From a virus (taxonomy: Duplodnaviria > Heunggongvirae > Uroviricota > Caudoviricetes), in IMG/VR virus record IMGVR_UViG_3300031134_000639: 37,372 bases of DNA; one strand, 5' to 3'. This document shows, piece after piece, positions 7,898-35,557 of the stretch (its first letter is position 1; each line of letters starts with the position of its first letter). A program made the translations under genes and the position numbers. The notes beneath the pieces are model-generated. The model had not been told where the DNA came from and searched no databases. It saw only the letters and a program-made list of their open reading frames with translations.

Positions 7898-8668
7898 ATG
7901 TTTTCAAAGATAAAATCGTTTCAACAACAAGAGGAAGGCTTTACTCTTATTGAGCTTCTAGTCGTAATCCTCATTATTGGTATTTTAGCTGGTATTGCTA
8001 TACCTGTTTTCTTGAACCAGCAGAAAGCTGCTATCAACGCTAGTGTCAAATCTGATGTGCGCAACACTGTGTCTAACGTAAGTTTGTTCCTAACACAGTA
8101 CCCTTCCGCTGCACCTGCTAACAACACTCAGCAGACGGGGCCGACTGTTGGCGCTAACGCTAGTACAGACCCTAAGCCAGTGATTGTTGCTAGCCGCACT
8201 GACACAACTGTTGCTGTTGCTTTCAGTTCAGGTAAGTATGATGTGGAAGGCTATAACAGTAAAACTGTTTTCAAATACAACTTCCAGTCTGAGCTAGGTA
8301 AGTATGGTACAGCTAGTATTGGCGTGGTGGATACTGCTGCTATTCCAGGTGCTACTAGTGGTGCTTCCACACCTCCAGCGGCGGCGGCAGCTACCATGAC
8401 TGCTCCTACCAAGACAAGCGATCCAGCTGGCTATATTGACACTGTTTCTTGGGGTATCCCAACAGGTTACACTGCCTCTAACGTGACCTACAACGTTACG
8501 TCCACTGGAGCTAACAAGTATAACTTCCCAGGCTTGAAAACAAACAAGTTTGAAGTTAGCAAAGATGACGTTGGCTATGGTGACACTTTTGTGACTGTAG
8601 TAGCTGTTGATAGTGCAGGGAAAGAAATTGCTCGGGCAACAGGTATGGTTCAGCTTGGATATGAATGA
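7898..8668 (+). CDS. Type IV pilin-like protein 1
   Basis: Class III signal peptide MFSKIKSFQQQEEG|FTLIELLVVILIIGILAGIAIPVFLNQQ (G-1, F1, E5); beta-rich C-terminal domain. Confidence 0.92.
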   Translation: MFSKIKSFQQQEEGFTLIELLVVILIIGILAGIAIPVFLNQQKAAINASVKSDVRNTVSNVSLFLTQYPSAAPANNTQQTGPTVGANASTDPKPVIVASRTDTTVAVAFSSGKYDVEGYNSKTVFKYNFQSELGKYGTASIGVVDTAAIPGATSGASTPPAAAAATMTAPTKTSDPAGYIDTVSWGIPTGYTASNVTYNVTSTGANKYNFPGLKTNKFEVSKDDVGYGDTFVTVVAVDSAGKEIARATGMVQLGYE

Positions 8669-8693
8669 TAGGTAGTTATTAAACGATTATCAT

Positions 8694-8744
8694 AAACAGT
8701 TGAGGGGTGCCACACAAAATTTGTGTGGCACCCCTCAACTGTTT
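8694..8744. terminator. Near-perfect 51-bp palindrome between convergent genes
   Basis: AAACAGTTGAGGGGTGCCACACAAA-A-TTTGTGTGGCACCCCTCAACTGTTT. Confidence 0.85.
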
Positions 8745-8750
8745 GTTTAG

Positions 8751-10529
8751 TTATGCTTTAGCGATACCATACATTTGGTAGGGCAGTTTTTTGTCTGAGG
8801 CCTGTGTCCAACGTGTCTCATTTAAGTGTGGTACAGGTAGAGCCTCGTACTCTCCTTGTCTGTCCGCGAACATCGGGTTCAGTGTGTTGTGAGGCAGTAG
8901 CATGTTCTTGGTGGAGAAAGTCACTCGCAGGAAGGTTCTAAGGCCCGGGATGGTCTTAAGTGGTGTTCTATGCACAGCGTAGGGGTCCATCAGATATAGA
9001 TGGCCCGGTTTTACTGTGTAGATATTCTCCTCAGATGCTTGCTTGTCAAACTCTGTGAACAGCCTCTCATGAGTGTCATCTAAGTGTCCTACGAAGAACG
9101 GCTGTAGACAAAACTCTGTTCCAGGGTTTGTTGTGAGAATGTAGGAGTGAGCGCTGACTTCTTTCTCAGTGAAAGCTCCACCCTGTAAATCATCACCGTG
9201 GAAGCCTGGGAAGCGATGGGTTTTGCCTTCCTCTATTTCACGGGTGTCGTGAGTGATGTGCGCAACCTGGCTTTCATATAGCGGGTTATGGCATTTGTCG
9301 TAAGTGAAGATGCGCTCTAGGATGCCCTGAATTGGTTTTAGCTCTGCGGGCACCATTATCTCTTGACTGTCCCACCATTTCAGAGGCATACGGAGAGTGT
9401 TCGGAATTGACTGAATCTTGTTCACGTCTGCTGTTCCCAGGTCAATGGGTAGGCGAGGGTTAGTATACTTTCTTGGCTCAAACGGTTCGGTCATGTCCCT
9501 GTATGTGGGTGAGTACGGCTGAACTTTAGGATACCATCTGTCTGGCGCTGTGATTGCTTTACCTGGTGTCAACGGAGCATCATCAAAGGTTCCTATGTCC
9601 TGTTTAGCTTTGCTTCGTTCCTGTTGTACAGCCTCTTCTGTTTTCGCTGTTGGATCTACCTCAATTTTAGCGTCTAGACCGTAGTAGTCGTAGTTCACTT
9701 CTGAGTCTGGTGCACGCAACCAGTCACGAATGTCTAGCTTGAAATTTGGCTTCTCTTGTTCAAGCATCGGGTTCAAAGTGTTGAACTCAATGGGTAGCGG
9801 AGCGTTCGCTACGGTAATACGGATGAACCCACGATGGGTGTCCTCATGGATTGTAGGTGTTCGGTGGACCATATAAGCATCCATCAGGTACAGGTGTTGG
9901 CTGATGCCTTTGAAGATGTTAACATCTTTAGCTTGTTGGTCAAAGGCCTTGAAGAAGTTAGTTATATCCTCATCGTAGTGCTTGATGAAGAAAGGCTGCA
10001 TACAGAACTCTGTGGGGTTGTTTGTTGCGATAACATATGAGTGTTCTGCAAGCAGTTTCTCTTTGAATTTCCCTCCTTGGAGGCCGTCTACATGCCAACC
10101 AGGGAACCGTTGGGTCTCTTGGGCTTTAACGAAACCGTAGTCTGTGGTTATGTGAACTTCACAGTTCTCAAACTGTTCGTTGATCATGCGTTCGTACTCT
10201 AGAACCTGCATGAGGAAAGGTTGAATGGCTTTAAGCTCCTCGGGGATGTAAGCGTTTGTTTCTCCTACAGGTTTTACAGTGAGTCGTAGGACGCGAGGTA
10301 GGTGCTCTACGGCACTGATATCAAAGAAGCCTAAGTCTACAGGTAGGCGCGGGGAAGTGTAATGGTCAAAACTGAACGGTGTTGTCAGATGTGTGTACAC
10401 TGGTGACCAAGACTGGGCTTTAGGCATCCACACGTCCCTGACCTCAACCACATCCCCAGTTGAACTTATCTCAGCGGCATCGTATTGGATGTTATCCACT
10501 GTCTTGTTATCTTCTGGTTTGTATGCCAT
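8751..10529 (-). CDS. Tandem-duplicated 2OG-Fe(II) dioxygenase-like protein
   Basis: Two homologous halves, each with HxD (H146-V-D148; H444-G-D446), a distal His (VHRTP; H222, H520) and an R-x-F-x-R-x-T strand. Confidence 0.75.
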   Translation of the reverse strand: MAYKPEDNKTVDNIQYDAAEISSTGDVVEVRDVWMPKAQSWSPVYTHLTTPFSFDHYTSPRLPVDLGFFDISAVEHLPRVLRLTVKPVGETNAYIPEELKAIQPFLMQVLEYERMINEQFENCEVHITTDYGFVKAQETQRFPGWHVDGLQGGKFKEKLLAEHSYVIATNNPTEFCMQPFFIKHYDEDITNFFKAFDQQAKDVNIFKGISQHLYLMDAYMVHRTPTIHEDTHRGFIRITVANAPLPIEFNTLNPMLEQEKPNFKLDIRDWLRAPDSEVNYDYYGLDAKIEVDPTAKTEEAVQQERSKAKQDIGTFDDAPLTPGKAITAPDRWYPKVQPYSPTYRDMTEPFEPRKYTNPRLPIDLGTADVNKIQSIPNTLRMPLKWWDSQEIMVPAELKPIQGILERIFTYDKCHNPLYESQVAHITHDTREIEEGKTHRFPGFHGDDLQGGAFTEKEVSAHSYILTTNPGTEFCLQPFFVGHLDDTHERLFTEFDKQASEENIYTVKPGHLYLMDPYAVHRTPLKTIPGLRTFLRVTFSTKNMLLPHNTLNPMFADRQGEYEALPVPHLNETRWTQASDKKLPYQMYGIAKA

Positions 10530-10591
10530 ATTTAAGGTCCCCTAAGGTTGAAGTGTCATATAAATAATCGGCTTGGGAGGAGCATATTGTG

Positions 10592-10641
10592 CATATGCGT
10601 GGGAAGGCAGATGATGTATTTCTTACCTTCCCACGCATATG
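10592..10641. terminator. Inverted repeat, probable terminator of the MinD-like gene
   Basis: 16-bp arms CATATGCGTGGGAAGG / CCTTCCCACGCATATG. Confidence 0.75.
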
Positions 10642-10644
10642 GTA

Positions 10645-11667
10645 TTATTCTTTAGTCAAAATGGATGCAACTTTTTTGATGCTTGAGTTGAACTGGTTTT
10701 TTGCTTTGTAGGCTTTAGCAAGTTCGGTAGTTACACTTGCGCGTTTAACAGCTAGCTCGGTCCCTAGTGCTGCTAAAATTGTGATTTCGCTGAAGTATTT
10801 TTCTATTAGCTCTTTACCCAAAAACTGACCTGGCAGAGTCATGTTAGCAATCAGCCCAACTTGATTTAAATTGAAGCGTCTATCCGGTAATCCGTTTAGA
10901 TCCTCTTCCAACTCTTTTTTCCATCTGAACAGATGAGGCAGAGGGTTTCTATCAAGGTCTGCTACATACAGGACTGCATCTGAAATGTTTACAATGCTAG
11001 GGAATGTTTCATCTAGATAAGTTATTCCTGTGTCAACGAAAACAAATTCGTAGTTTGCTTTCAGATTAGCGAGCATGTCTACATAGAACTGGGAGGAGAG
11101 GAGATCAGCTTTTCTGTCGCTACGTTTGGGAGATAGAACAACATCTATGTCTAATGAGTTGTCGTGAATAATGGTTTTTCTGAGAGCATGAATCGTTTTT
11201 TCATCTGAAAGGTAGTAGTTCAACATAGTTGGGGTAGCTTGGCTAACGTAATAGCTCAGCTGACCATTTCTTATGTCAGCATCGACAATTATTGCTGTTG
11301 CACCAGTTTTTCTGACAGCTGCTGCAAGAGCTAAAGCGACACTAGTTTTGCCTGTTCCCCCTTGGCTTGAAGCCAAAGTTATGATACGTCCTTCACCTTT
11401 TGACGAAAAGCCTAGACCAGCAGAAGAAGCAAAACTGTCGGTTGCAGTAGCAGAAATAAGAACGTCATCTCGGATGACTCCCTGTTCTGAGAGCAGGTCT
11501 CGTAGGGTTTCTTCTGTCTGAGTGCCTTTGTTAAGGGTCAAATGGAAACCGCCTGCTTGAACGTCAGGGTCTGTGGTTGTAATATGAATGGTGTCATTCT
11601 TTTTCAGATATGACACTCGTACGTTTTCTAGGGTAACGTATTTTTTGTTTTCGTCAGTTTTTGACAT
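10645..11667 (-). CDS. MinD/ParA/CpaE-like P-loop ATPase with an extra N-terminal domain
   Basis: IITLASSQGGTGKTSVA (deviant Walker A), IIVDAD, FVFVDTG; SD AAGGA. Confidence 0.85.
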   Translation of the reverse strand: MSKTDENKKYVTLENVRVSYLKKNDTIHITTTDPDVQAGGFHLTLNKGTQTEETLRDLLSEQGVIRDDVLISATATDSFASSAGLGFSSKGEGRIITLASSQGGTGKTSVALALAAAVRKTGATAIIVDADIRNGQLSYYVSQATPTMLNYYLSDEKTIHALRKTIIHDNSLDIDVVLSPKRSDRKADLLSSQFYVDMLANLKANYEFVFVDTGITYLDETFPSIVNISDAVLYVADLDRNPLPHLFRWKKELEEDLNGLPDRRFNLNQVGLIANMTLPGQFLGKELIEKYFSEITILAALGTELAVKRASVTTELAKAYKAKNQFNSSIKKVASILTKE

Positions 11668-11724
11668 GGTTCATCCTTAAATTGTTTGGGTCTGGTTTCC
11701 GCCAGTTCGGTTGTTACATCTATT

Positions 11725-11732
11725 GTATCGGA
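11725..11732 (-). promoter_or_regulatory. TCCGATAC motif upstream of the MinD-like gene
   Basis: Reverse complement of GTATCGGA, about 57 nt upstream of the ATG. Confidence 0.5.
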
Positions 11733-11817
11733 CTACATAGTTTCACCTCTGTTTCCATGCACGGCAAGGTCAGGAACACTTTCATGATATAGTAAGGTGA
11801 ACGGATTCGGAGGGTTT

Positions 11818-12477
11818 ATGCGTCAGAAGTATAACCAAGCAGTAGTTGGGCAGAAGGTAACTGATGCTTTAGATGCCTTCAAATATGAGTCCGGTTCTAA
11901 GCTAGCTGGCACCAAGGTGTTTGCTGGTCCTGGCAAGTCAGCTTCTAAGATCGTGTGGGCTTTACACAACTTCCAAGCTTGGGTTCAGCCTGACTCTCCA
12001 GATGCTATCTTCATAACAGTGAACTCTTCTCTAGCTGAAAAGCTACATCCTCACGACTATCTTAGATACGTTGGTATCAGACACTTCGGAAACATGTACT
12101 GGTTTCAGGTTGAAGCAGAGTGCAAACTCCTCTCTTCGGAGCGCTTTGAGATAACGGAAAGGAAACTTTTCTGGTCTCGGATGAGTTCATTTGCTGTGGA
12201 GCCTACGAAACTTGAGAGCGTGTTCGCTAGACCTTGGCTTTTAGGCAAACCAGATTCTAGTACTTTTTACTACGAGCTGATAATGTCAAGTACCAACATT
12301 CAACTTGCAAATACCAAGTTGGAGTCAAAAACTCTGTCAGGGCATAGTAGTTGGGTGGATCTTCATAATCTATACTTCCACCCTGAAGTGTTCGCTGTAG
12401 ATCAGGGTATGCCTGGTGTTCCGGAGGAGCATCTTAAGAAACTGTTTGATGTACCAACTAAGCTGATAATGACATAA
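11818..12477 (+). CDS. HxHD/Hx4H family paralog 5
   Basis: HPHDYLRYVGI...AEC...WVDLHNLYFHPEVF...PGVPEEHLKKL; TGA-TATAGT at 11785-11793 and SD GGAGG support ATG 11818. Confidence 0.85.
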   Translation: MRQKYNQAVVGQKVTDALDAFKYESGSKLAGTKVFAGPGKSASKIVWALHNFQAWVQPDSPDAIFITVNSSLAEKLHPHDYLRYVGIRHFGNMYWFQVEAECKLLSSERFEITERKLFWSRMSSFAVEPTKLESVFARPWLLGKPDSSTFYYELIMSSTNIQLANTKLESKTLSGHSSWVDLHNLYFHPEVFAVDQGMPGVPEEHLKKLFDVPTKLIMT

Positions 12478-12529
12478 AATAATCTTAGCGCTACCGAAAA
12501 CTACCTCACTATTGTGGTACCATAGTAGA

Positions 12530-13360
12530 ATGAGTTCTTACTGGCCGACTATGACACGGTTCTTTGCTATGTTGCTTGGCCCAGTTCGTGATTTTGTAGA
12601 GGCAACAAAGCAAGCTCTAGGAGACATAGTTTCCCAGTTCAAAAATCCTGGTGTCACTAAAAGGTTTTTTGCTGTTCCACTCAAAATTTTTACAACTCCA
12701 TTTGTTGCTGTTGCCTCTATGTTTGAAAGCAGAGCAAAAATTAAAGCTCATGGGGTGGTAGCTGGTCTAGACAGCTTGCATACTGAAGGCAAACATCTTC
12801 ACAAATTCTTCAGGTATTGGGCTTATCTTTTTACTCTTGATCTTCTAACTAAGAAGCGGTTCTCATGGGTTGACAAGAAGTTAAGTGTCTACGACTATGG
12901 TTGGGGAACTATGATAGCTTCTCTTCACAGAGACCAGGCTAAACTTTTTCATGAGCATGACCGCATGCAATATATCCGGGTTAAACTTTTTGGGCTAATA
13001 CCGTACTGGTTCCAGATAGAAAGAAACTGTGCTGAGTCTCCTTCTTTTACTCTTAGAGCTTGCACCACCCGTTTCTGGTGGATGCTTGCCGTGGTCCATA
13101 ACTCTAAGACGTTTGACAAAATTGATTTGTCTGACCTTGAAAAGTTTTTGTTACCTCCCGGATGGGATTCGTCTCTCACCACATGGAGTGCATCAGCGCT
13201 TAGTTTAAGGCAGACTTTAGATACTTTATCTCCAGACTACGATTGGGTTGACCTACATAACCTGTATTACCATCCAAGCGTTTTCGCTGCTGACCATGAC
13301 TTTGAGGGAATCCCAGGTGAGTATGTCCGAAAGGTACTTGGAGTACCCGAAAGACTTTAG
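12530..13360 (+). CDS. HxHD/Hx4H family paralog 6 (probably leaderless)
   Basis: HEHDRMQYIRV...RNC...WVDLHNLYYHPSVF...EGIPGEYVRKVL; TGG-TACCAT-N6-ATG 12530. Confidence 0.85.
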   Translation: MSSYWPTMTRFFAMLLGPVRDFVEATKQALGDIVSQFKNPGVTKRFFAVPLKIFTTPFVAVASMFESRAKIKAHGVVAGLDSLHTEGKHLHKFFRYWAYLFTLDLLTKKRFSWVDKKLSVYDYGWGTMIASLHRDQAKLFHEHDRMQYIRVKLFGLIPYWFQIERNCAESPSFTLRACTTRFWWMLAVVHNSKTFDKIDLSDLEKFLLPPGWDSSLTTWSASALSLRQTLDTLSPDYDWVDLHNLYYHPSVFAADHDFEGIPGEYVRKVLGVPERL

Positions 13361-13381
13361 GCTGTGTCTACTGTAGACTTC

Positions 13382-13394
13382 CGTTAGACATAGA
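13382..13394 (+). promoter_or_regulatory. CGTTAGAYATAGA motif, copy 2
   Basis: CGTTAGACATAGA-GC-ATG(13397); same spacing as the copy at 1018. Confidence 0.5.
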
Positions 13395-13396
13395 GC

Positions 13397-14221
13397 ATGA
13401 GACAGCACTATTCTACGCTTACTGGCAGCTGGGAAGATTGCAGCGCTACAATACGTAAATGCCAATATGAACATCGTAATGGTAGCCTGTCCGCTCCTGC
13501 TGTCTCTTCACCGGAGAGGGAAGCTGTTGAAGCTGACAAAGCTTCTTTCTTAGACCAAATGGTCAAACTGTGGTCACCTAAAAAGTTTGATATTCCAGAG
13601 TCTTTTTCTTTAGTCACTAGCCGCACTAAGAGTAAAGAAATTCGCGTTGCTGATGCAGGTTCAACAGCTAAACGTTGCCACAGATGCAATGTCTATGTTT
13701 CTGAGGAAGAAGTTGAAACAATGTACTCGGAAGACTACAGGTGCAGCAAATGTGGTGAAAAGCCGCCCACTGGACTTGGAGTTGACACCCCCTATGTTGT
13801 TGAAATTGACCGTGGTGAAGCTGTTTTCCTAGTTGACAAGAAAGCAGCTAAAGAACGCACTTGGTATCATGCTACAATCAAGAAGGACTGGGAAGATGGA
13901 GTCCGCTCTAACAGTGTTTATGTCCACGCTGGCTCACGTGAGGCTGCGGAAGACCGCATCAAAATTGACTGGCCCAACCAAGTATTCTTCCTGTATGAAC
14001 TTAAACTGAAGAAGAACACTAAGTTTGGTGAGAACGCTTGGGATGATAACGATTTTCCGGAGACCACACATCATCCTCTTTCTGAGACAAACTCTCCTCT
14101 TGCAGCTGACAAAGTGACCTTATATGTCAACAAGTACGAGCACCCTGGGAGCGTAAGCATGGTATCTGCCCCACGCAATTTTGATGTTGTAAAGAAATCT
14201 ACAATTACGCCAAGCTTCTAG
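13397..14221 (+). CDS. Protein with N-terminal H-C-C-H module, central CxxC...CxxC zinc finger and a possible ADP-ribosyltransferase-like C-terminal domain
   Basis: HYSTLTGSWEDCSATIRKCQYEH; CHRC...CSKC; TWYHAT...VYVHAGSREAAEDR...LYELKL. The ORF is solid; the ART assignment is tentative. Confidence 0.75.
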   Translation: MRQHYSTLTGSWEDCSATIRKCQYEHRNGSLSAPAVSSPEREAVEADKASFLDQMVKLWSPKKFDIPESFSLVTSRTKSKEIRVADAGSTAKRCHRCNVYVSEEEVETMYSEDYRCSKCGEKPPTGLGVDTPYVVEIDRGEAVFLVDKKAAKERTWYHATIKKDWEDGVRSNSVYVHAGSREAAEDRIKIDWPNQVFFLYELKLKKNTKFGENAWDDNDFPETTHHPLSETNSPLAADKVTLYVNKYEHPGSVSMVSAPRNFDVVKKSTITPSF

Positions 14222-14290
14222 CACAAGAACAATCAAACTTGATTTGTGCTATAGTTGAGATACCAACTTATTTCAACTACGGAGGCAATT

Positions 14291-28119: not shown

Positions 28120-28125
28120 AACTGT

Positions 28126-28599: not shown

Positions 28600-28604
28600 T
28601 ATAG

Positions 28605-28642
28605 GTGTGGCCCTGAACGAAGTTTCTAGTTCAGGGCCACAC
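28605..28642. terminator. Inverted repeat between convergent genes
   Basis: 14-bp arms GTGTGGCCCTGAAC / GTTCAGGGCCACAC. Confidence 0.8.
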
Positions 28643-28673
28643 TTATATGTTTATGTGAGCATATGAGGTTAGG

Positions 28674-28961: not shown

Positions 28962-29214
28962 CTACAGCCTTGTTGAAAGCGATAAGTGCAACATCACAGG
29001 GGGACTTGAGAGTGGGCTTGTCTGCGGCTCTGAATGAGTTTACTCCACTAGCGCCATAGGCAGGCTTTTTGTCTAAACGGACAACCCGAATCATCTTGGT
29101 TGTGAAACCTACAACCCGGAACGGTACCATGTGCTTGTAGCCACCATCTGTTGACACAACAATGTCGTTCTCATTGAGAGGGTTACCTTGAAAATCTACC
29201 TGATTTGAACTCAT
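28945..29214 (-). CDS. Small hypothetical protein (SH3/KOW-like start)
   Basis: DFQGNPLNENDIVV...FRVVGFTTKMIRV; TATAAT and GAAAG upstream. Confidence 0.75.
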   Translation of the reverse strand: MSSNQVDFQGNPLNENDIVVSTDGGYKHMVPFRVVGFTTKMIRVVRLDKKPAYGASGVNSFRAADKPTLKSPCDVALIAFNKAVGESDE

Positions 29215-29309
29215 AGTTTCTACTTTCTTGTGGTCGTGAGATAGAGCGTGCTTCTATTATACAAGAAGACGCACCAAAAAGCAAGTTTATAAAAATCTTA
29301 TTTCAAGAG

Positions 29310-29338
29310 TTGACATGCTCTAATTCTTGGGTTAAAGT
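29310..29338 (+). promoter_or_regulatory. Sigma70/SigA-type promoter of rIIA
   Basis: TTGACA-N17-TAAAGT; SD AAGGAG at 29367-29372. Confidence 0.75.
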
Positions 29339-29381
29339 AGGGTTATCACTTATTCGCCCCTTATCTAAGGAGTACCAAGCT

Positions 29382-31583
29382 ATGAAGATTAATTCCACTG
29401 TTGCAACTGTTGAGACTTCCGCCGTGTTTGATACCACCACACGCATGAGTGTTGAGGATGAGTCTCTTGTCTTCATCCTCTCCAGCCTAACCAACCTGTA
29501 CTCCAACCGTGAGGCAGCTGTTCTTCGTGAGACTGCCGGTAACGCTTACGACTCCCACATTCTTGCTGGGCAGACTCGCCCGGTTGAGGTCACTCTCCCC
29601 ACTGCTCTGAATCCTTCTCTTGTCATCCGCGACTACGGTGTGGGCATGAGCCGTGATGAGCTTGTCAACATCTACTCCAAGTACGGAGCTTCAACGAAGC
29701 GTGACACCAACAAGCAGATTGGTGCGTTCGGCTTGGGAGCTAAGTCCCCGCTGGCTCTCGTTGACCAGTTCACTGTTATCTCTGTAAAGGATGGCATCAA
29801 GAACACGGTCCTCATCTCTAAGGGTACTGATGGTGTTGGTGGACTTAACTTCCTTCCTGAGAAGGCTACGGATGAGGCCAACGGTGTGACCGTTGACATT
29901 CCCATCCCGGATGCCGGTAAGATGGTCCGCGCATCTGAGGACATGTTCAGCGGATGGCCTCTCGGGTCTGTTCTCATCAACGGTGCCGCACCGAAGTTCT
30001 CCATTCACGACACCGCGCAGTCCAACAAGATTGCAGACGCCGGTTGGACTGCTGTTTCTCCCGAGCGATGGGGTAACACTGTCGTCAAGGCTTTCATTGG
30101 TCCGGTCCTCTACACGATTGAGCTTAACGAGGCTTTCAACGACTACTCCACCCGCCAGGAGGCGCTGGGAATCATCAACGGTTTCCGATCCACTGACGTG
30201 TACCTGAACCTGCCTATTGGCTCTGTTGAGCTTACGCCGTCACGTGAGAACCTTGTTTACAATGACGTTTCTCGTGCCGGTATCCTTGCTGCCCTTGACG
30301 AGTTTAACCGTCAGTACACCATCTCCATTGAGACTGAGCTTAACAAGATTGAGGACCGCACAAAGGCTTTCGGCTTCATTGCTAACCATGTCCGTAACGG
30401 TGCTTTCCCTAACGGTCTCTCGTGGAAGGGTGAGTCTCTTCCGGCATGGGAGGAGACCGGCGTTGACTCTTGGACTATTGGTGTTGTTGACCTGGACACC
30501 ACCAGTGCAAAGTACACTACTCCGGAAAAGTACAACCTGCTTTCCTACCAGTTGCACAACAGCCTCATGTCTCTTAAGTCTAGTGTCGTTGTGCAGAATG
30601 TGAAGGACCTTGAGGCAACCAAGCGTCACGTCCGTGATTATGTTCGTTCCACCGGCGAGCGTGTCATCAAGTTTGCTTTCACTGAGGGCGCAGTCACTAA
30701 CCCCTGGCTTGCTGTTGCAATCGGTTCAACGATTGAGGCTTCAGAGCTTGCAGACCAGGCTCGTGCTTACCGTGTTGAGGCTGACCGTAAGGCTCGGGAG
30801 CTTGCAAAGCTTGGTCTTACCTCTGGCCGTATCAAGGCGAACGAGAAGTTCTCAACCATTGAGGCGCTTAGCTCCTCCTGGTACAGCAAGAAGTTCACCG
30901 TCACTGAGCGTGCAGCCAACACATTCACTGAAGACACAAAGGTCATGTACCTGATGGTGGATGAGACTGTTGACGCGGTGAACCACAAGCTAAACCATGC
31001 AATTCGTGAGTCTGTCAGCGCTACCGGTGGTGGCTTCGGTCGTCGTGCTGATGGTTTGGAACTGGTTATCGCTGAGCTACTTAAGTCAGACAAGGATGTG
31101 GCTCTCATTAAGCTGCCTAAGGGGCGTAACCTTGGTAAGTTCAAGGAGATTTTCCCTAAGGCTGTGCCTGTCGCTGAGGTTGTCATCGAGTTCGTTAACA
31201 CCACTCGCCTGAACTCAACTGACCTTGAGAAGGAGTGGTTCAGTGTCAACATGCACAAGGAGCTTGATTACGCAATTCTTCTCAACGAAGAGGTCGTCAG
31301 CCGCGTAGGTGAGATCAGCAACGTTGACACACGTGCTTGGGTTCTTGCAGGTGCTAACAACGGTCACCGTAAAGCTTCAGCAGCGATTGGCGCTCTCGCT
31401 TCCAGCAGCCGCACCATTCCTTCAGAGGCACTAACTACTGCTGTCAAGGAATATGTTGACAGCGTTAAAGTCGCCCAGACAAAGGGTAACCGCAACTACG
31501 GCCTACTTAAGTCTGTTCAGAAGTTTGACGCCACTGACGTGATTGAGTACGTCAACATGAAAGACGCTCAGGCTAACAAGTAA
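29382..31583 (+). CDS. rIIA: rIIA-like protein (N-terminal GHKL/HATPase_c ATPase)
   Basis: LYSNREAAVLRETAGNAYDSH, IRDYGVGMS, YGASTKR...IGAFGLGAKS, GSVELTPSRENL; adjacent to rIIB; start moved to ATG 29382. Confidence 0.88.
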   Translation: MKINSTVATVETSAVFDTTTRMSVEDESLVFILSSLTNLYSNREAAVLRETAGNAYDSHILAGQTRPVEVTLPTALNPSLVIRDYGVGMSRDELVNIYSKYGASTKRDTNKQIGAFGLGAKSPLALVDQFTVISVKDGIKNTVLISKGTDGVGGLNFLPEKATDEANGVTVDIPIPDAGKMVRASEDMFSGWPLGSVLINGAAPKFSIHDTAQSNKIADAGWTAVSPERWGNTVVKAFIGPVLYTIELNEAFNDYSTRQEALGIINGFRSTDVYLNLPIGSVELTPSRENLVYNDVSRAGILAALDEFNRQYTISIETELNKIEDRTKAFGFIANHVRNGAFPNGLSWKGESLPAWEETGVDSWTIGVVDLDTTSAKYTTPEKYNLLSYQLHNSLMSLKSSVVVQNVKDLEATKRHVRDYVRSTGERVIKFAFTEGAVTNPWLAVAIGSTIEASELADQARAYRVEADRKARELAKLGLTSGRIKANEKFSTIEALSSSWYSKKFTVTERAANTFTEDTKVMYLMVDETVDAVNHKLNHAIRESVSATGGGFGRRADGLELVIAELLKSDKDVALIKLPKGRNLGKFKEIFPKAVPVAEVVIEFVNTTRLNSTDLEKEWFSVNMHKELDYAILLNEEVVSRVGEISNVDTRAWVLAGANNGHRKASAAIGALASSSRTIPSEALTTAVKEYVDSVKVAQTKGNRNYGLLKSVQKFDATDVIEYVNMKDAQANK

Positions 31584-31589
31584 GACCAA

Positions 31590-31637
31590 TCTATGTGGGG
31601 AAAGTGACTTGCACATGAGTTGCTTTCCCCACATAGA
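31590..31637. terminator. Inverted repeat between rIIA and rIIB
   Basis: 15-bp arms TCTATGTGGGGAAAG / CTTTCCCCACATAGA plus an inner wobble stem. Confidence 0.75.
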
Positions 31638-31648
31638 AATGATATAAT
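31620..31648 (+). promoter_or_regulatory. Promoter of rIIB
   Basis: TTGCTT-N17-TATAAT with TGn extension; the -35 box overlaps the hairpin's right arm. Confidence 0.65.
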
Positions 31649-31693
31649 CATTAAACACTAAACTTTCCACACCCCACAACGACTAGGAAAACA

Positions 31694-33103
31694 ATGTCTA
31701 CTTTCTATAACCTCTACACAGGACGCAATTCCTCTGGTATCACAATCATCTTTGAGAACACCAACCCCCGGTCAATCACCAATGACCACCCATTCTTTGA
31801 GCATGTCAAAAGCATCTTCCTCACTACAGCGCCTGAGGACATTGACGAGAGCCAGATTCTGGATCTTATCAACCCGGTTAGCAAGATTGGTGCCGCTCTA
31901 ACTAAGTTGTCCAGCCGCGTTACCTACAACGGTACCGACATTTTCTTTGACGGTGATGTTGTCAACAACTCACTGAGCGGACAGATCGTGAAGGCAATTC
32001 AGAACGGTGAAGAGGAATCAGCCTACCAGCCTCTCATTAACTTCCTTGAGAAGGTCAGCACCAACCCTAATCCGACAGCTGTTGAAGGTCTCTATGACTT
32101 CCTTTCCAGGTATGATTTCACAATTGCACCTGACGGTGACTTGCTCGCCCACAAGAAGGTTACCCCAGCAGGCACAAGCTTCCACAGCGGTTACGGTATC
32201 GTAGATGGAGTTGTTTACAAGAACTCACAGCTTCCCAACGCTGTCGGTAGCGTGGTTGAGTTCCCGCGTTCTCGTGTGGACGCCAACCAGCTTCACGGTT
32301 GTTCCACCGGACTGCACGCTGGTTCCTACGATTTCGCTGTGAACTTCGCTACGGGCATTCTTCTAGTTGTCAAGATCAACCCTCGTGATGTTGTCTCTGT
32401 CCCCTATGACTTCGCTTTCCAGAAGATTCGCACCTGCCGCTACGTGGTACTACACGAGGTTGAGACAGAGCAGCCTGCAACTGTCTGGGACCGTGTTCTA
32501 CAGAAGCACTCCCCTGAGAATGCTACCCCTGAAGAGGAGCCTGAGGAAGAGGAAATCGCAGAGGACAGTGCGATCATGCGAATTCTTCACCAGAGCAAGG
32601 ACGAGCAGGAAGAGGTCGGTTTCGGCTACACCAAGCTTGATGGCCGCTACGTGTCTGTTGACAGGTTCATGCCGGAGAGCTTCAGAGGAGACACTGTCAC
32701 TGGCTTGACTGACCGTGGTTACCGAACCTATGTTGTTGATGGCATTGAGGACATTGCATTCCTGTCCAAGGAGAGGAACAAAGAAGCTGGTGTAGATTCT
32801 CTCATCGACTCCATGAATGTGTTCTTCAAGGCTGCACATGATAAGGGAGTCTCCGATGAGCATGTAATCAAGATTTTGGATGAGATCACAGAACTGCTCA
32901 ACAAAAGCCACGTCAACAAGGAGCTAGCTGCTACTCAGCTTCCTGATGGCGAAGGCCTGAAAGCTATTCGTGATTCAGCTGGTAATGTTTCATTCTACGT
33001 CCGCACTCAGACTAAAGATGGGAAGACAACAGCAGTCGGAGCGCCCATCTTCAAGACTGGCGATGCTCTCGCTGATGAGGTCTTTGATGCTCTAGCTGAG
33101 TAG
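31694..33103 (+). CDS. rIIB: rIIB-like protein with a C-terminal extension
   Basis: DGDLLAHKKV, NAVGSVVEFPRSRVD, CSTGLHAGS, VKINPRDVVSVP, KIRTCRYVV. Confidence 0.88.
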   Translation: MSTFYNLYTGRNSSGITIIFENTNPRSITNDHPFFEHVKSIFLTTAPEDIDESQILDLINPVSKIGAALTKLSSRVTYNGTDIFFDGDVVNNSLSGQIVKAIQNGEEESAYQPLINFLEKVSTNPNPTAVEGLYDFLSRYDFTIAPDGDLLAHKKVTPAGTSFHSGYGIVDGVVYKNSQLPNAVGSVVEFPRSRVDANQLHGCSTGLHAGSYDFAVNFATGILLVVKINPRDVVSVPYDFAFQKIRTCRYVVLHEVETEQPATVWDRVLQKHSPENATPEEEPEEEEIAEDSAIMRILHQSKDEQEEVGFGYTKLDGRYVSVDRFMPESFRGDTVTGLTDRGYRTYVVDGIEDIAFLSKERNKEAGVDSLIDSMNVFFKAAHDKGVSDEHVIKILDEITELLNKSHVNKELAATQLPDGEGLKAIRDSAGNVSFYVRTQTKDGKTTAVGAPIFKTGDALADEVFDALAE

Positions 33104-33112
33104 CTTTCAGCG

Positions 33113-33161
33113 AAAAATGTCTATCCCCCGCATGTAACCTGTGCGGGGGATAGACATTTTT
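33113..33161. terminator. Inverted repeat, terminator after rIIB
   Basis: 20-bp arms AAAAATGTCTATCCCCCGCA, 9-nt loop. Confidence 0.85.
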
Positions 33162-33212
33162 GTCTTTAGGGGACAATAAATGACAAACTTTCATGTTTTT
33201 TCTCTGATGTTG

Positions 33213-33219
33213 ACCGATA
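33213..33219 (+). promoter_or_regulatory. ACCGATA motif upstream of the LAxTG surface protein
   Basis: 34 nt upstream of ATG 33254, just downstream of the rIIB terminator; no SigA-type promoter noticed. Confidence 0.55.
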
Positions 33220-33253
33220 CAACTAACGAACCTTCTACAGAGAGAATATTTTT

Positions 33254-35557
33254 ATGCCCATTTCAGAAAGTTTCCGCAGCAAGATGCGTAAATCTGCGAC
33301 AGTCACTTGTGTGAGCAGCGTTGCATTAGCAGGATTTATGTTCAGCGTACCAGTAGCTAACGCCGCTGAGTACCAAGCAGACACTACTTGGGGTAGCAAC
33401 GGACAGATTAACTTGTCCGAAAACTACTCATCAGTTTACGAGCCTGGTCTAGACAGTGCCAACAACCTATACATCGTTAACAACGCACAAAGCGGTGCTG
33501 GTGTAGACGCACCAGATGGTATCACCAAATACAATGCGCAAGGTCAGATTGATGTTTCATGGGGAGCAAACGGTTTCCTAGAGCTTGCAGACATTGTTGA
33601 CATTCAAGTATTAGGTGACGGTACCATCTACGCTCTAACCGACACAACTGTTAACGTCTACAGCGCAGATGGTGCGCTAGTTTCAAGCTTTGATATTAGT
33701 GACGTTTCAGGCTTAGGCGCAACCAACGTTGCTGTCACACCTGAAGGTGAAATTGTGGTAGCTGTAGCAACACAGATTGACTTCGCAGACACAAACGTTC
33801 TCTACAAGCTGTCAGCGACTGGTGACATTGTAAACGACTTCGGAACCAATGGTCTAGTTAACCTAGGCGCAGGAACACTCAACGATGTTGCAGTCACAGC
33901 TGATGGTAGTATTTACGTTGCTTCCGCTGGTGAGGCACTAGCTAAGTTCTCTGCTGCTGGTATCACTGATGATGGTTTCGTAGCAGACGTAACAAATGCT
34001 GGTACAGAGCTACTAGATCTACAGGCTTCACCCACAGACAACAGTGTTTATGTTAAAGGAAACGCTGCTCTAGTTAAGGTATCTCCTACCGGCGCTCAGG
34101 AGGCATGGAATGATGGTGACGGGTTTGCAGATGCAACCGGAACAGTCTTCGCTCTCAACGCAGCTGGTGACCTGTACGTAGCTAACCAGACTGTTGGCTC
34201 AACATACAGCAAACTAGTTACAGTAGCTGATGTAGCTGCACCAAGCCAGCCTACAAACGTTACTTTCACAAACATTGCTGAACGCAGTGCAACAGTCAAC
34301 TGGGAAGCACCAGTTAACACAGGTGGAAGCGATGTTACAGGCTATGACGTGCAGTACCGTGCTGTTGGCGCAACTGACTGGCTTCTACTTGACACACTTC
34401 CAGGTACCGCAAGGTCTGCTAACCTTACAGGTCTTACAGGCGAAACAGGATACGAAGTTTCTATCACAGCAACTAACGCTACAGGTACAGGTGCTGCTGC
34501 CGGAGCCGTCTTCAACACAGCAGCTGCACAAGCAGACGTTATTACAGCGCCTACTTCTCTAAGTGTTGTATCTGAGCAGTCAGGTCAGGCTACATTCGTG
34601 TGGGCTGCGCCAGCCGTACCTGAAGGTGTTACAATTACCGGCTATGAAGTTCAGTACCGTCTTGACGGTGGTGACACAGCAGTTACAAATAGAACTGTTG
34701 CTGCTAACACCACTGAATTCTCTGCAACAGGCCTTGAGAACTTGAGCAAGTACAACTTCAGTGTTCGCACGCTGACGAGTGCTGGTGCAAGCCAGTTCTC
34801 TCCTGGCGTAGTTATTACCCCATTTGAGTTCGCTCCTGTAGCAAACTACACTGACACTCGTGAAGAAGCAGGAGTGCAGCAGGTTCCTGGAAGCACAATC
34901 AAGCTTACACCTTCAAACGTTAATGATCTGCTCCCTGTTGGCGCAACAGTCAACCTGAAACTTGTTAACGCTGCTGGTGTTGAGACCTTAATTGGCTCAC
35001 AGGTTGTGGGTGCTGATGGTGGTTACGACCTAACCGGTACAATCCCAGCAGATTATGCAACAGGTAACGCTACTTTGCTTGCTGAGGTAGCATTTGAAAA
35101 CAGTGTACGTCAGGCTGTTGAAGAAAGCCTAGTTGTTGTAGCTGCCGAGTCTGCTCCAGACCCTAATGCTCCCGTTGTAGGAGGTAGCGGCGATAATGGT
35201 GGAGTTGCACCTGCTGACAATGGCACCACACCTATTGCATCTGGTGGAGACACTGGTGTGATAGGCGAAAACGGCTCAGCTACCCCCACATACGCCAATT
35301 GTGATGCAGCTATTGCCGATGGTAATGGGAATCTACAGACAACTGACCGTAACCTTGATGGCGATGGCGATGGGATTGGCTGTGAAGTAGCTGGTGGACC
35401 ACAGAACGCATCTGCTCTAGCTTACACCGGTACAGATGGAACCAGTTCACTCATCGGTGCTGGACTCCTTCTTCTTGGTGCTGGTGCTGGTTTAGGCGCT
35501 ATTAGCTTGAAGCGTCGTAAGAAGTATGAAAGCTTCCTACCAAGTAACATTAGCTAA
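33254..35557 (+). CDS. Sortase-anchored cell-surface protein: signal peptide, beta-propeller-like repeats, 2x FN3, Ig-like domain, Excalibur Ca-binding domain, LAYTG anchor
   Basis: Signal peptide ending VANA|A; D-x-[ST]-W/F-G-x-N-G repeats; two FN3 domains (W...P...YDVQYR...YEVSITATN; YEVQYR...YNFSVRT); YANC...DRNLDGDGDGIGCE (35291-35386); LAYTG (35417-35431) followed by a TM segment and KRRKK. Confidence 0.9.
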   Translation: MPISESFRSKMRKSATVTCVSSVALAGFMFSVPVANAAEYQADTTWGSNGQINLSENYSSVYEPGLDSANNLYIVNNAQSGAGVDAPDGITKYNAQGQIDVSWGANGFLELADIVDIQVLGDGTIYALTDTTVNVYSADGALVSSFDISDVSGLGATNVAVTPEGEIVVAVATQIDFADTNVLYKLSATGDIVNDFGTNGLVNLGAGTLNDVAVTADGSIYVASAGEALAKFSAAGITDDGFVADVTNAGTELLDLQASPTDNSVYVKGNAALVKVSPTGAQEAWNDGDGFADATGTVFALNAAGDLYVANQTVGSTYSKLVTVADVAAPSQPTNVTFTNIAERSATVNWEAPVNTGGSDVTGYDVQYRAVGATDWLLLDTLPGTARSANLTGLTGETGYEVSITATNATGTGAAAGAVFNTAAAQADVITAPTSLSVVSEQSGQATFVWAAPAVPEGVTITGYEVQYRLDGGDTAVTNRTVAANTTEFSATGLENLSKYNFSVRTLTSAGASQFSPGVVITPFEFAPVANYTDTREEAGVQQVPGSTIKLTPSNVNDLLPVGATVNLKLVNAAGVETLIGSQVVGADGGYDLTGTIPADYATGNATLLAEVAFENSVRQAVEESLVVVAAESAPDPNAPVVGGSGDNGGVAPADNGTTPIASGGDTGVIGENGSATPTYANCDAAIADGNGNLQTTDRNLDGDGDGIGCEVAGGPQNASALAYTGTDGTSSLIGAGLLLLGAGAGLGAISLKRRKKYESFLPSNIS

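What the first reader, a model, noticed from the sequence alone, without database searches (positions are those of the whole stretch)
7898..35557. Candidate phage-encoded host-surface remodelling system (pilins, sortase substrate, ATPase and membrane proteins under one regulon)
Seen in sequence: four prepilins, an LAYTG wall-anchored FN3/Excalibur protein, a MinD/CpaE-like ATPase and several membrane proteins sit among phage genes (rIIA/B, nrdE). Most have a CCGATA or near-variant motif upstream. No prepilin peptidase, assembly ATPase or sortase was recognised in the window. Established: class III signal peptides require a prepilin peptidase and LPxTG-type anchors require a sortase. Inference: the phage uses host machinery, or machinery encoded elsewhere in its genome, to re-coat infected cells. 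Possible purposes are blocking receptors against competing pilus-binding phages or changing adhesion, aggregation and motility. I do not know of this combination being described in an actinophage.
Basis: partly seen in the sequence, partly recalled or inferred. Interest (0 to 1): 0.9.

Follow-up and report, generated by a model that had tools for sequence, protein, structure and literature searches.

The report
Giant element's outlying pilin genes
The four pilin genes, the wall-anchored protein and the shared CCGATA motif are real, but the same roughly 885-kb uncultivated phage-like element also carries two complete pilus-building machines, at least 15 more pilin genes and its own sigma factor about 300 kb away. 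It therefore most likely builds its own pili rather than borrowing the host's.

Summary
Observation confirmed. The window holds four type IV prepilins, a Sec/LAYTG-anchored beta-propeller-FN3-Excalibur protein, a MinD/ParA-superfamily ATPase, several membrane proteins and an rIIA/rIIB pair. No pilus machinery or sortase lies in the window or within 9 kb either side.

CCGATA is the most upstream-enriched hexamer in the window (9 of 10 copies, P about 1e-11).

Interpretation partly supported.
- The same replicon encodes pilM-N-O, pilT, pilB, a second pilT-like gene and pilC. Next come ten tandem pilins with the same N-terminus as the window pilins, a full Tad locus with its own CpaE/TadZ-like ATPase, and a divergent sigma factor. 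A VirB4-like conjugation-type module sits beside them. Three independent assemblies support the linkage.
- CCGATA is the core of the sigma-28/WhiG -10 box (GCCGATAA). It also precedes nrdH, RNase H, an ADP-ribosyltransferase gene and the pilus machinery. It is a genome-wide promoter class, not a surface regulon.
- The window ATPase is not specifically CpaE-like.
- Virus-encoded pilins that use host machinery are already published (SNJ2, P-FimU).

Still missing: a prepilin peptidase, a sortase, and proof that the element is a phage.

Earlier scan notes recorded other pilins and an orphan PilD N-domain in this genome, but not the machinery.

The parts
7898..8668 (+). Pilin 1 (256 aa). A modular type IV pilin: leader, alpha-1 helix, pilin head, Ala/Pro/Thr linker, then a C-terminal FN3-like domain.
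   Evidence: N_methyl at 31.4 bits. Alignment A1. CCGATA lies at 7830-7835, 62 nt upstream.
10645..11667 (-). MinD/ParA-superfamily P-loop ATPase (340 aa). Its Walker A reads SSQGGTGKT. It has DxDxR and hhhhDT motifs like BY-kinase cores, and an uncharacterised roughly 65-aa N-terminal beta-rich domain. It is not assignable to pilus function.
   Evidence: The N-domain is shared with FtsK/SpoIIIE-type proteins. CCGATA lies at 11726-11731 on the minus strand.
15323..15580 (+). 85-aa protein with two transmembrane segments, preceded by a CCGATA site at 15279.
16700..17200 (-). Pilin 2 (166 aa). A short, conventional pilin with two Cys in its C-terminal third.
   Evidence: N_methyl at 35.8 bits.. 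CCGATA lies at 17316-17321 on the minus strand, 115 nt upstream.
19049..20245 (-). Pilin 3 (398 aa). Pilin head, a Thr/Pro-rich repeat linker, an extra Cys-containing domain, then an FN3-like C-terminal domain. It has no CCGATA; the upstream sequence contains TTGACA.
20398..21156 (-). Pilin 4 (252 aa). Pilin head, short linker and an FN3-like C-terminal domain. It has no CCGATA upstream.
   Evidence: In the model, residues 160-245 have pLDDT 65-88. Fold match to FN3 domains: Z 8.5, rmsd 2.9-3.5 over 85-90 residues.
23331..23621 (+). 96-aa protein with two transmembrane segments, preceded by a CCGATA site at 23291.
23891..25749 (+). Two overlapping paralogous polytopic membrane protein genes (317 and 301 aa, 5-6 transmembrane segments each), function unknown. 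One CCGATA site lies at 23846. They are not prepilin peptidases.
   Evidence: The nearest Atlas clusters are unannotated Actinomycetota membrane families.
29310..33103 (+). rIIA-like (757 aa) and rIIB-like (469 aa) gene pair. These are the only clear phage-type markers in the window.
   Evidence: Precomputed PF26926 hit.
33254..35557 (+). Secreted wall-anchored protein: signal peptide, beta-propeller-like N-region, two FN3 domains, an Ig-like region, Excalibur, then the LAYTG sorting signal.
   Evidence: CCGATA lies at 33214-33219, 34 nt upstream.
7830..33219 (.). Nine promoter-like CCGATA sites, matching the core of the sigma-28/WhiG -10 box. They lie at 7830+, 11726-, 15279+, 15599+, 17316-, 22532+, 23291+, 23846+ and 33214+.
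   Evidence: The consensus GCCGATAA is quoted in PMC8325347. No fixed -35 TAAA was found.

Best explanation
The window is an accessory stretch of a roughly 885-kb uncultivated, phage-like extrachromosomal element. The element comes from plant-surface communities and has Actinomycetota-type genes. Its four pilin genes are outlying members of a repertoire of at least 19 type IV pilins.

The element encodes the apparatus for these pilins itself, about 290-330 kb away on the same replicon. The order there is:
1. pilM, a pilN-like gene and pilO
2. pilT, pilB, a second pilT-like ATPase and pilC
3. a serine recombinase
4. ten tandem pilins
5. a Tad locus (CpaB-like, CpaE/TadZ-like, TadA, TadB, TadC, TadE/G-like)
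6. a third secretion ATPase and a divergent sigma-70-family factor

A VirB4-like ATPase, a mobilome membrane protein and an M23 hydrolase lie just upstream of this block.

Inferred mechanism:
- The window pilins share the identical cleavage site and alpha-1 helix with the tandem pilins.
- They are inserted in the membrane and cleaved by a prepilin peptidase, which is host-supplied or not yet found.
- The element's own PilB/PilC platform then polymerises them.
- Pilins 1, 3 and 4 display an extra FN3-like domain on a Pro/Thr-rich stalk. They act as adhesive or variant subunits.
- The LAYTG protein is an independent adhesin-like product attached by a class E sortase, probably the host's.

CCGATA is the conserved core of a sigma-28/WhiG-type -10 element without a -35 box. 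It is probably read by the element's own sigma factor, which lacks a detectable region 4, or by host WhiG. It drives a large share of the element's genes, not only surface genes.

The ATPase and the small membrane proteins share this promoter class but have no demonstrated role in pili.

Shown: gene identities, linkage, motif statistics and purifying selection. Inferred: assembly by the element's machine, the role of the sigma factor, and the adhesive function.
For: Machinery on the same contig.
- JGI Ga0540631_0000001 carries the window genes (L002).
- The same contig carries the pilus super-locus at 244-286 kb (L101, L102, L104, L108).
- Family hits there are PilM_2, PilO, three or more T2SSE, T2SSF and ten N_methyl genes.
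- The Tad locus hits are CpaB (E 5e-6), AAA_31/MinD, TadE and Tad.

Independent linkage.
- A 338-kb contig from another sample holds the pil cluster (L105). It also holds near-identical copies of the window ATPase (P0004), the LAYTG protein (P0018) and pilin 1 (P0020).
- Contigs of 885 and 884 kb hold both window pilins and tandem pilins.
- The two ENA contigs sum to 624,949 + 259,059 = 884,008 bp.
- GC is 44-45% in all pieces.

Same pilin family.
- All 14 pilins read share G|FTLIELLVVILIIG(I/V)LA.(I/V)AIPVFLNQQK.
- A profile search puts the tandem pilins (P0025/P0181, P0027) among the best hits, at 155-172 bits.

Functional constraint.
- Across 30 codons of the cleavage site and alpha-1 helix there are 0-2 amino-acid changes.
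- In the same stretch, 54-72% of the identical codons differ synonymously.

Promoter.
- The motif precedes pilM, pilB, pilT, the recombinase, four tandem pilins, TadB, a TadE-like gene and the third ATPase.
- It also precedes nrdH, RNase H, a bPH/SHOCT gene and an ART gene.
- It matches the flagellar/WhiG -10 box GCCGATAA, and WhiG drives type IV pilus clusters in Actinomycetota (PMC8325347).
- A sigma factor gene lies in the locus (NCBIfam E 1.4e-8; PDB SigA E 1.5e-6). Only regions 2-3 are matched.

Actinomycetota affinity.
- The best 80 genome matches to the pilin N-terminus are almost all Actinomycetota; none is named as another phylum.
- The closest rIIA relatives are in actinophages.

Stability.
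- The region is syntenic at 1-2.4% divergence in runs from four studies.
Against: - No peptidase_A24 and no sortase were seen in any of the roughly 130 kb of this genome that I could read. The machine is therefore not demonstrably self-sufficient.
- The window pilins lie about 300 kb from the machinery. Pilins 3 and 4 lack the motif.
- There are no expression data, so the promoter role of CCGATA and the role of the sigma factor are inferred.
- The -35 half of the sigma-28 consensus is absent. Only 8 of 31 sites have the flanking G.
- The pilin head domain modelled poorly (pLDDT under 50).
- All linkage rests on metagenome assemblies, although three agree.
- Whether the element is a virus at all is unresolved.
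Confidence: 0.65

Rival explanations
1. First reader's preferred reading. A phage without pilus machinery feeds its pilins into the host's type IV pilus machine, and its LAYTG protein to host sortase. This re-coats the infected cell, for example to exclude pilus-binding competitors.
For: - No machinery lies in the window or within 9 kb either side.
- The pilin N-termini are of Actinomycetota type.
- All five actinobacterial genomes tested have PilB and PilD.
- 54 of the 80 loci have PilB, PilT and PilC within 10 kb of the pilin.
- Published precedents exist: SNJ2 pilins and P-FimU/P-PilA.
- No A24 peptidase or sortase was found on the element, so these two steps may well be host-dependent.
Against: - The element itself encodes PilMNO, PilB, PilT, PilC, a Tad system and ten pilins of the same family.
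- These machinery genes carry the same promoter motif as the window pilins.
- Carrying a full machine makes reliance on the host's machine unnecessary.
Confidence: 0.15
2. The element is not a virus but a giant conjugative plasmid-like replicon. Its type IV and Tad pili, modular pilins and wall-anchored adhesin serve cell-to-cell contact for transfer. This would resemble the thin pilus and variable PilV adhesins of IncI plasmid R64.
For: - A VirB4-like AAA_10 ATPase, a CD3337/EF1877 mobilome membrane protein (E 1e-18) and an M23 hydrolase lie directly upstream of the pil cluster.
- The same order occurs in a 128-kb relative with GC 38%.
- A serine recombinase sits between pilC and the pilin array.
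- ParA-type ATPases are present.
- No capsid, portal or terminase gene was seen in any piece read.
- No bona fide cultured phage in 50,697 records has a close PilB.
- The R64 comparison is from my own knowledge.
Against: - There is an adjacent rIIA/rIIB pair whose best relatives are in actinophages.
- A phage family hit (phrog_1843, E 6e-36) is present.
- The nucleotide-metabolism gene set is T4-like.
- No relaxase or coupling protein was seen.
- Earlier scan notes describe head-protein-type cargo tags (e1-1930614, untested here).
- Only about 15% of the genome was readable to me.
Confidence: 0.3
3. The contig is the chromosome of an ultra-small episymbiotic bacterium (Patescibacteria/Saccharibacteria-like). 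In such bacteria, several pilus loci, many pilins, a type IV secretion system and sortase substrates are ordinary.
For: - Genome size (about 0.885 Mb), GC (45%) and plant-surface habitat resemble a 0.83-Mb rice-phyllosphere Saccharibacteria chromosome that has four pil regions (PMC10973392).
- Bacterial-type LigA, RecX and an RNase H gene are nearby.
- Some nearest Atlas clusters for PilB are Minisyncoccota.
Against: - About 130 kb read by me contains no tRNA genes. About 120 kb of it gave no Rfam match of any kind.
- The gene tables I read show no ribosomal-protein operon, tRNA synthetase or RNA polymerase subunit.
- Most genes lack any family hit and occur in paralogue arrays.
- Earlier notes report about 44 ADP-ribosyltransferase genes (e1-1680183).
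- The pilin N-terminus matches are Actinomycetota, with no Patescibacteria among the top 80.
- An rIIA/rIIB pair is present.
Confidence: 0.06

Closest known systems
SNJ2 provirus pilins PilA1/PilA2 of Natrinema (Xiang et al. 2025, PMC12426801)
   Same: A virus genome encodes type IV pilins that reach the cell surface as filaments and change adhesion, motility and susceptibility to another virus.
   Different: SNJ2 carries two pilins and no machinery, and hijacks the host's. Here the element carries at least 19 pilins plus complete type IVa and Tad machines. The lineage is bacterial (Actinomycetota-type), not archaeal. Nothing has been shown experimentally.
Prophage P-FimU and phage P-PilA proteins (Sztanko et al. 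2026, PMC12952977)
   Same: Phage-encoded pilins carry a conserved N-terminus and diversified exposed parts. They are incorporated into pili and may block competing pilus-binding phages.
   Different: Those are single genes in small Pseudomonas or Xylella phages and replace a host subunit. Here there is a large paralogue family with extra FN3-like modules and its own assembly apparatus.
IncI1 plasmid R64 thin pilus with PilV shufflon (from my own knowledge)
   Same: A mobile replicon combines a type IV secretion module, its own type IV pilus cluster, a site-specific recombinase and variable pilin adhesins.
   Different: R64 is a 120-kb Gram-negative plasmid with a secretin, and its PilV variants arise by DNA inversion. 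Here the variants are separate genes, the envelope is monoderm-type, and the replicon also has rIIA/rIIB. No relaxase was seen.
WhiG/sigma-28-controlled type IV pilus clusters of Actinomycetota (Schumacher et al. 2021, PMC8325347)
   Same: Pilus genes are preceded by the flagellar-type -10 box GCCGATAA, and the system is a monoderm one without a secretin.
   Different: Here only the CCGATA core is conserved and there is no TAAA -35 box. The motif is spread over many non-pilus genes. A divergent sigma factor without a detectable region 4 is encoded in the locus.
Modular pilins such as Streptococcus sanguinis PilB (PMC8179133)
   Same: A pilin module is followed by an extra globular domain displayed on the filament for adhesion.
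   Different: The appended domain here is FN3-like on a Pro/Thr-rich stalk rather than vWA or lectin-like. No structure or binding data exist.

Membership tests
Type IV pilin (class III signal peptide, PF07963/TIGR02532) | Short charged leader ending in Gly, then Phe+1, Glu+5 and a hydrophobic alpha-1 helix of about 20 residues. | tested here: met
   All four ORFs score 31-36 bits against a cut-off of 21.2. The sequences were read.
Type IV pilin (class III signal peptide, PF07963/TIGR02532) | Cleavage and N-methylation by an A24 prepilin peptidase, and assembly into a filament. | not testable with these tools
No A24 gene was found in the roughly 130 kb read.
Monoderm type IVa pilus system | PilB extension ATPase, PilT retraction ATPase, PilC platform and PilM/N/O alignment proteins on the same replicon. 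| tested here: met
   L101, L102 and L104 on the JGI contig that also holds the window genes. The relative L092 shows T2SSE at E 9e-141, T2SSF at 1e-57 and PilM_2 at 3e-25.
Monoderm type IVa pilus system | Dedicated prepilin peptidase PilD in or near the cluster. | tested here: inconclusive
   Not present from 244 to 286 kb of the JGI contig. The rest of the genome was not searchable.
Tad/Flp pilus system | TadA ATPase, TadB/TadC, TadZ/CpaE, CpaB/RcpC and TadE/G pseudopilins. | tested here: met
   L101 12518-19746 holds CpaB (E 5e-6), AAA_31/MinD, T2SSE, two T2SSF, TadE (1.5e-5) and Tad (6.5e-7). Flp pilin and TadV were not identified.
CpaE/TadZ (for the window ATPase 10645-11667) | Location in a tad locus, a receiver-like N-domain, and a score above the family model's cut-off. 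| tested here: not met
   TIGR03815 scores 21.9 bits against a cut-off of 154. There are no tad genes nearby. The N-domain is a different beta-rich module of about 65 aa. TadZ structure 3fkq ranks only 34th.
Sortase substrate (LPXTG-type, LAxTG class E variant) | N-terminal Sec signal and a C-terminal pentapeptide, followed by a hydrophobic segment and a basic tail. | tested here: met
   LAYTG, then about 25 hydrophobic residues, then KRRKK. TIGR01167 scores 17.7 against 15.9. That LAxTG belongs to class E sortases is from established knowledge.
Sortase substrate (LPXTG-type, LAxTG class E variant) | A cognate sortase is available. | tested here: inconclusive
   No PF04203 appears in any gene table read. 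The host is unknown.
Sigma-28 (FliA/WhiG) promoter | A -10 box reading GCCGATAA. | tested here: met
   The CCGATA core is invariant at 31 upstream sites. The flanking G occurs in 8 of 31 and the flanking A in 11 of 31. The consensus comes from PMC8325347.
Sigma-28 (FliA/WhiG) promoter | A -35 box reading TAAA about 15 nt upstream. | tested here: not met
   No preferred TAAA spacing was found among the 31 sites.
Tailed phage | Major capsid, portal and large terminase genes. | not testable with these tools
   No whole genome is held. None of these genes appears in the pieces read. Only rIIA/rIIB and phrog_1843 are phage-typical.
Gram-positive-type conjugative type IV secretion module | VirB4-like ATPase, VirB6-like mobilome membrane protein, cell-wall hydrolase, coupling protein and relaxase. 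| tested here: inconclusive
   AAA_10, CD3337/EF1877 (E 1e-18) and Peptidase_M23 are present. No coupling protein or relaxase was seen in the DNA read.

The most novel reading that the evidence does not exclude
An approximately 885-kb virus of plant-surface Actinomycetota, larger than any described phage genome, brings its own retractile type IVa and Tad pilus machines and more than twenty pilin variants. It also brings a wall-anchored adhesin and a dedicated sigma-28-like factor that reads a minimal CCGATA promoter. Infected cells would therefore grow virus-specified pili. This would be a virus that equips its host with a complete surface organelle, rather than adding one subunit to the host's.
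Probability: 0.25. Interest if true: 0.9.

Novelty: new variant of a known kind. Interest (0 to 1): 0.6.

Why it matters
Mobile-element-encoded pilins are known as single genes that slip into host pili. Plasmid-borne pili are known from Gram-negative conjugative plasmids.

Here a giant, still unclassified replicon linked to Actinomycetota combines several features:
- two full pilus machines
- an expanded, modular pilin family
- a sortase-type adhesin
- a conjugation-type module
- phage-type rII genes
- its own sigma factor with a one-box promoter

If the element is viral, it widens what a virus can make its host build. If it is a plasmid-like element, it is an unusually large and autonomous one.

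The CCGATA/sigma pair is directly testable. It could explain how the element runs hundreds of genes independently of host promoters.

For the finding as submitted, the main lesson is corrective. The 'missing machinery' is not missing.

Tried and rejected
- Whole-genome search for PilB, PilC, PilD and sortase. No genome is held for the window or its records, so I hopped with 12 exact-protein look-ups instead.
- Megablast of 22 kb against 50,697 phage records: no match. tblastn of pilin 4 against the same set: no match at 1e-5.
- IMG/VR scans with an exact 42-mer, the ATPase, rIIB and a PilB alignment. These gave nothing, or one unrelated 8-kb contig.
- First genome-contig scan with whole pilin 2: no relatives. 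Repeating it with the N-terminal 60 aa worked.
- Search for homologues of the pilin globular part and of the LAYTG protein's N-region in 5.8 billion proteins. Only the element's own lineage appeared, plus one weak beta-propeller hit.
- Test of ATPase linkage to pilins. The homologue in an 828-kb relative has other neighbours, and the adjacent 611-aa and 592-aa proteins are unrelated.
- Idea that the two polytopic membrane proteins are a divergent prepilin peptidase. Rejected: no family hit, I saw no GxGD-type motif on reading them, and the nearest Atlas clusters are unannotated.
- Search for a -35 partner of CCGATA: none.
- Expression: no RNA holder was listed among the public runs.
- Laying contigs of four runs showed synteny and strain variation, but cannot rank genes by variability.
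- Assembly breaks at window 7389-7419 looked like a genome end. They coincide with a perfect 23-bp hairpin, so they are probably an assembler artefact.
- Inverted repeats that would indicate a pilin shufflon next to the recombinase: none found.
- The pilin head domain modelled too poorly for a fold search.
- Pilin FN3-like domain against the FN3 domains of the LAYTG protein: no significant similarity.
- The first Rfam call exceeded the size limit. The repeat on 120 kb found nothing.

Full report
**What is in the window.** The window has about 45% GC, 89% coding density and no tRNA genes.

- Four ORFs are type IV prepilins by Pfam and NCBIfam: 7898-8668+, 16700-17200-, 19049-20245- and 20398-21156-. 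Each has a 12-13-residue leader ending in Gly, followed by FTLIELLVV with Glu at +5.
- Pilin 2 is short (166 aa) and conventional.
- Pilins 1, 3 and 4 have a pilin head (residues 1 to about 136), a Pro/Thr/Ala-rich linker and a C-terminal beta-sandwich. A model and fold search identify the sandwich as FN3-like: Z 8.5, rmsd 2.9-3.5 over 85-90 residues, pLDDT 65-88. Pilin 3 has a further inserted domain.
- The 767-aa product of 33254-35557 has a signal peptide, a beta-propeller-like N-region, two fn3 domains and Excalibur. It ends in LAYTG, a hydrophobic segment and KRRKK.
- rIIA and rIIB are genuine.
- The ATPase at 10645-11667 has a generic MinD/FlhG/ParA fold. It has BY-kinase-like DxDxR and hhhhDT motifs and no signature lysine.
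- Nothing resembling PilB, PilC, PilD or a sortase lies in the window or in the 9 kb on either side.

**The motif.** CCGATA occurs ten times on both strands. Nine copies lie in correctly oriented upstream intergenic DNA, which is 4.7% of the search space. That makes it the most upstream-enriched of all hexamers counted (P about 1e-11).

It precedes pilins 1 and 2, the ATPase, the LAYTG gene and three membrane-protein units. It also precedes a 347-aa cytoplasmic protein and the DUF2071 gene, whose true start is probably near 22546. Pilins 3 and 4 lack it and have TTGACA-type upstream sequence.

In the flanks it also precedes RNase H, the nrdH-nrdI-nrdE operon, a bPH/SHOCT gene and an unknown gene. 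Elsewhere in the genome it precedes an ADP-ribosyltransferase gene. It is a general promoter class, not a surface-specific regulon.

**The genome.** The window lies at 542-579 kb of ENA contig k141_624373 (624,949 bp). It also lies on JGI contig Ga0540631_0000001 (603,234 bp).
- No whole genome is held, so I moved around it by exact-protein look-ups.
- A second ENA contig of 259,059 bp from the same sample carries further pilins.
- The two ENA contigs sum to 884,008 bp. This matches contigs of 884,011 and 885,359 bp from other samples that carry the same proteins.
- The sequence recurs in phyllosphere, straw and plant metagenomes from several studies. This region is syntenic there at 1-2.4% divergence.

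**The decisive result.** A profile search with the pilin alignment returned many short pilins. Their cluster members sit on the same 603-kb and 885-kb contigs. Looking two of them up showed the following gene order at 244-286 kb of the JGI contig:
1. a VirB4-like AAA_10 ATPase
2. a CD3337/EF1877 mobilome membrane protein (E 1e-18)
3. an M23 peptidase
4. an ABC transporter pair
5. pilM, a pilN-like gene and pilO
6. pilT, pilB (MshEN plus T2SSE), a second pilT-like ATPase and pilC
7. a serine recombinase
8. ten tandem N_methyl pilins
9. a Tad locus (CpaB-like, CpaE/TadZ-like AAA_31, TadA, TadB, TadC, TadE-like, Tad/TadG-like)
10. a third T2SSE ATPase
11. a 393-aa sigma-70-family protein

The tandem pilins share the cleavage site and alpha-1 helix of the window pilins almost letter for letter.

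The linkage does not depend on a single assembly. A 338-kb contig from another sample carries both the pil cluster (L105) and near-identical copies of the window ATPase, LAYTG protein and pilin 1. GC is 44-45% throughout.

Counting only what I saw, the element has at least 19 pilin genes:
- four in the window
- ten tandem
- three near 455-476 kb
- two more on the 603-kb contig (P0171, P0178)

**Are the pilins functional?** Across the 30 codons that encode the cleavage site and alpha-1 helix, the window pilins differ at 0-2 amino acids. Yet 54-72% of the identical codons differ synonymously. These are old paralogues under strong purifying selection, not recent copies or decaying genes.

The N-terminal 60 residues find their best 80 genome matches almost entirely in Actinomycetota, and none is named as another phylum. 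The matches include Solirubrobacterales, Nocardioides, Cellulomonas, Kineococcus and Glaciihabitans. Their pilin genes usually sit beside PilB, PilT and PilC. The five genomes tested all have PilB and PilD.

**The promoter and the sigma factor.** In the pilus super-locus, CCGATA sits 9-58 nt upstream of pilM, pilB, pilT, the recombinase, four tandem pilins, TadB, a TadE-like gene and the third ATPase.

The hexamer is the core of the flagellar/WhiG -10 consensus GCCGATAA. WhiG-type factors drive type IV pilus clusters in Actinomycetota (PMC8325347). Among 31 upstream sites, only the hexamer is conserved and there is no TAAA -35 box at any preferred spacing.

The locus-encoded sigma factor matches regions 2 and 3 only (NCBIfam E 1.4e-8; PDB SigA E 1.5e-6). 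That would fit recognition without a -35 box. This link is my inference. Host WhiG is the alternative reader.

**What it most likely does.** The window pilins are best read as additional subunits for the element's own type IVa pilus. Pilin 2 would be a plain subunit. Pilins 1, 3 and 4 would display FN3-like domains on flexible stalks, as adhesive or antigenically variant subunits.

The LAYTG protein is a separate wall-anchored adhesin-like product. Its attachment needs a class E-type sortase, which I did not find on the element.

The ATPase, the two polytopic paralogues and the small membrane proteins share the promoter class. They have no family, neighbourhood or fold evidence tying them to pili. 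A Wzy_C-family membrane protein (E 1.6e-18) and a GDSL hydrolase lie 2-4 kb beyond the window end. This hints at further envelope modification.

**What kind of element is it?** This is unresolved.
- For a phage: the rIIA/rIIB pair has actinophage relatives, a phrog_1843 protein is present, and the nucleotide-metabolism set is T4-like.
- For a conjugative replicon: there is a VirB4-like ATPase, mobilome membrane protein and hydrolase module, ParA-type ATPases and a recombinase. I saw no virion genes in the roughly 130 kb read. No bona fide cultured phage carries a close PilB.
- For a reduced episymbiotic cell: size, GC and habitat resemble a phyllosphere Saccharibacteria chromosome. Against this, about 130 kb contains no tRNA genes, and 120 kb of it gave no Rfam match. 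The gene tables I read show no ribosomal-protein operon, tRNA synthetase or RNA polymerase subunit, and there are many paralogue arrays.

**Comparison with the known.** Virus-encoded pilins that use host machinery are established (SNJ2, PMC12426801; P-FimU and P-PilA, PMC12952977). PHROGs already lists pilin families.

What differs here is scale and autonomy: two machines, a large modular pilin family, a dedicated sigma factor and a minimal promoter, all on a giant replicon. I class it as a new variant of a known kind.

Noticed in passing
L108:12126-13307 (JGI contig about 251-252 kb): A divergent 393-aa sigma-70-family protein sits at the end of the pilus super-locus. Only regions 2-3 are detectable and the C-terminal 200 aa match nothing. 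It is a candidate reader of the -35-less CCGATA promoters.
   Followed up: partly
L104:1-5886 and L100:1-5844: A VirB4-like AAA_10 ATPase, a 956-aa CD3337/EF1877 mobilome membrane protein and an M23 peptidase lie directly upstream of the pil cluster. The order is conserved in a 128-kb relative with GC 38%.
   Followed up: partly
L089:4921-6700 (equivalent to about 2.3-4.0 kb beyond the window end): A Wzy_C-family membrane protein (303 aa, E 1.6e-18) lies next to a GDSL/SGNH hydrolase. This suggests possible glycan or pilin-glycosylation functions. The Thr/Pro-rich pilin linkers would be plausible targets.
   Followed up: no
window 7381-7432: A perfect 23-bp inverted repeat with a 6-nt loop lies between convergent genes. 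The JGI contig and contigs in two runs (X3, X6) break at this point, so it is probably a terminator that confuses assemblers rather than a genome end.
   Followed up: yes
window 10645-11667, residues 1-65: The ATPase's N-terminal beta-rich domain is 41-57% identical to the N-termini of FtsK/SpoIIIE-family proteins (310-411 aa) on other contigs, including a 695-kb relative. It appears to be a portable module on different P-loop NTPases.
   Followed up: partly
window 2624-3268, 3376-4047, 5302-6324, 6367-7347, 11797-12477, 12512-13360, 14255-15001, 17433-18239: Eight paralogues share a C-terminal motif (HNLY[YF]HP..F, then P.EYV). Some have N-terminal transmembrane segments. None has a family hit.
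   Followed up: no
window 1033-1776, 13397-14221, 36683-37372: Three proteins start with a similar His/Cys knuckle (H..G....C......C...H). A conserved sequence of about 13 nt lies just before the start codon of the first two.
   Followed up: no
L107:3453-7175 and 11036-20514: Long same-strand arrays of unannotated paralogues of about 190-230 aa surround three further pilin genes, a pectate-lyase-like beta-helix protein, a Laminin_G_3 protein and an ADP-ribosyltransferase gene.
   Followed up: no
L101:6564-10447: A 38-nt element (core CATCATTTTGCAATAGATGATAAG) recurs four times between the tandem pilin genes. It may be a regulator site.
   Followed up: no
window 22400-23257: The DUF2071 ORF as listed starts about 48 codons too early. 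A CCGATA site at 22532 and the start of the domain match suggest the real start is near 22546.
   Followed up: partly
L089:7113-7376: An 87-aa protein gives a weak partial match to ribosomal protein S10 (23.8 bits, E 5.6e-5).
   Followed up: no
window 8751-10529: A 592-aa internally duplicated protein matches phrog_1843 (E 6e-36) twice. Pfam finds nothing.
   Followed up: no
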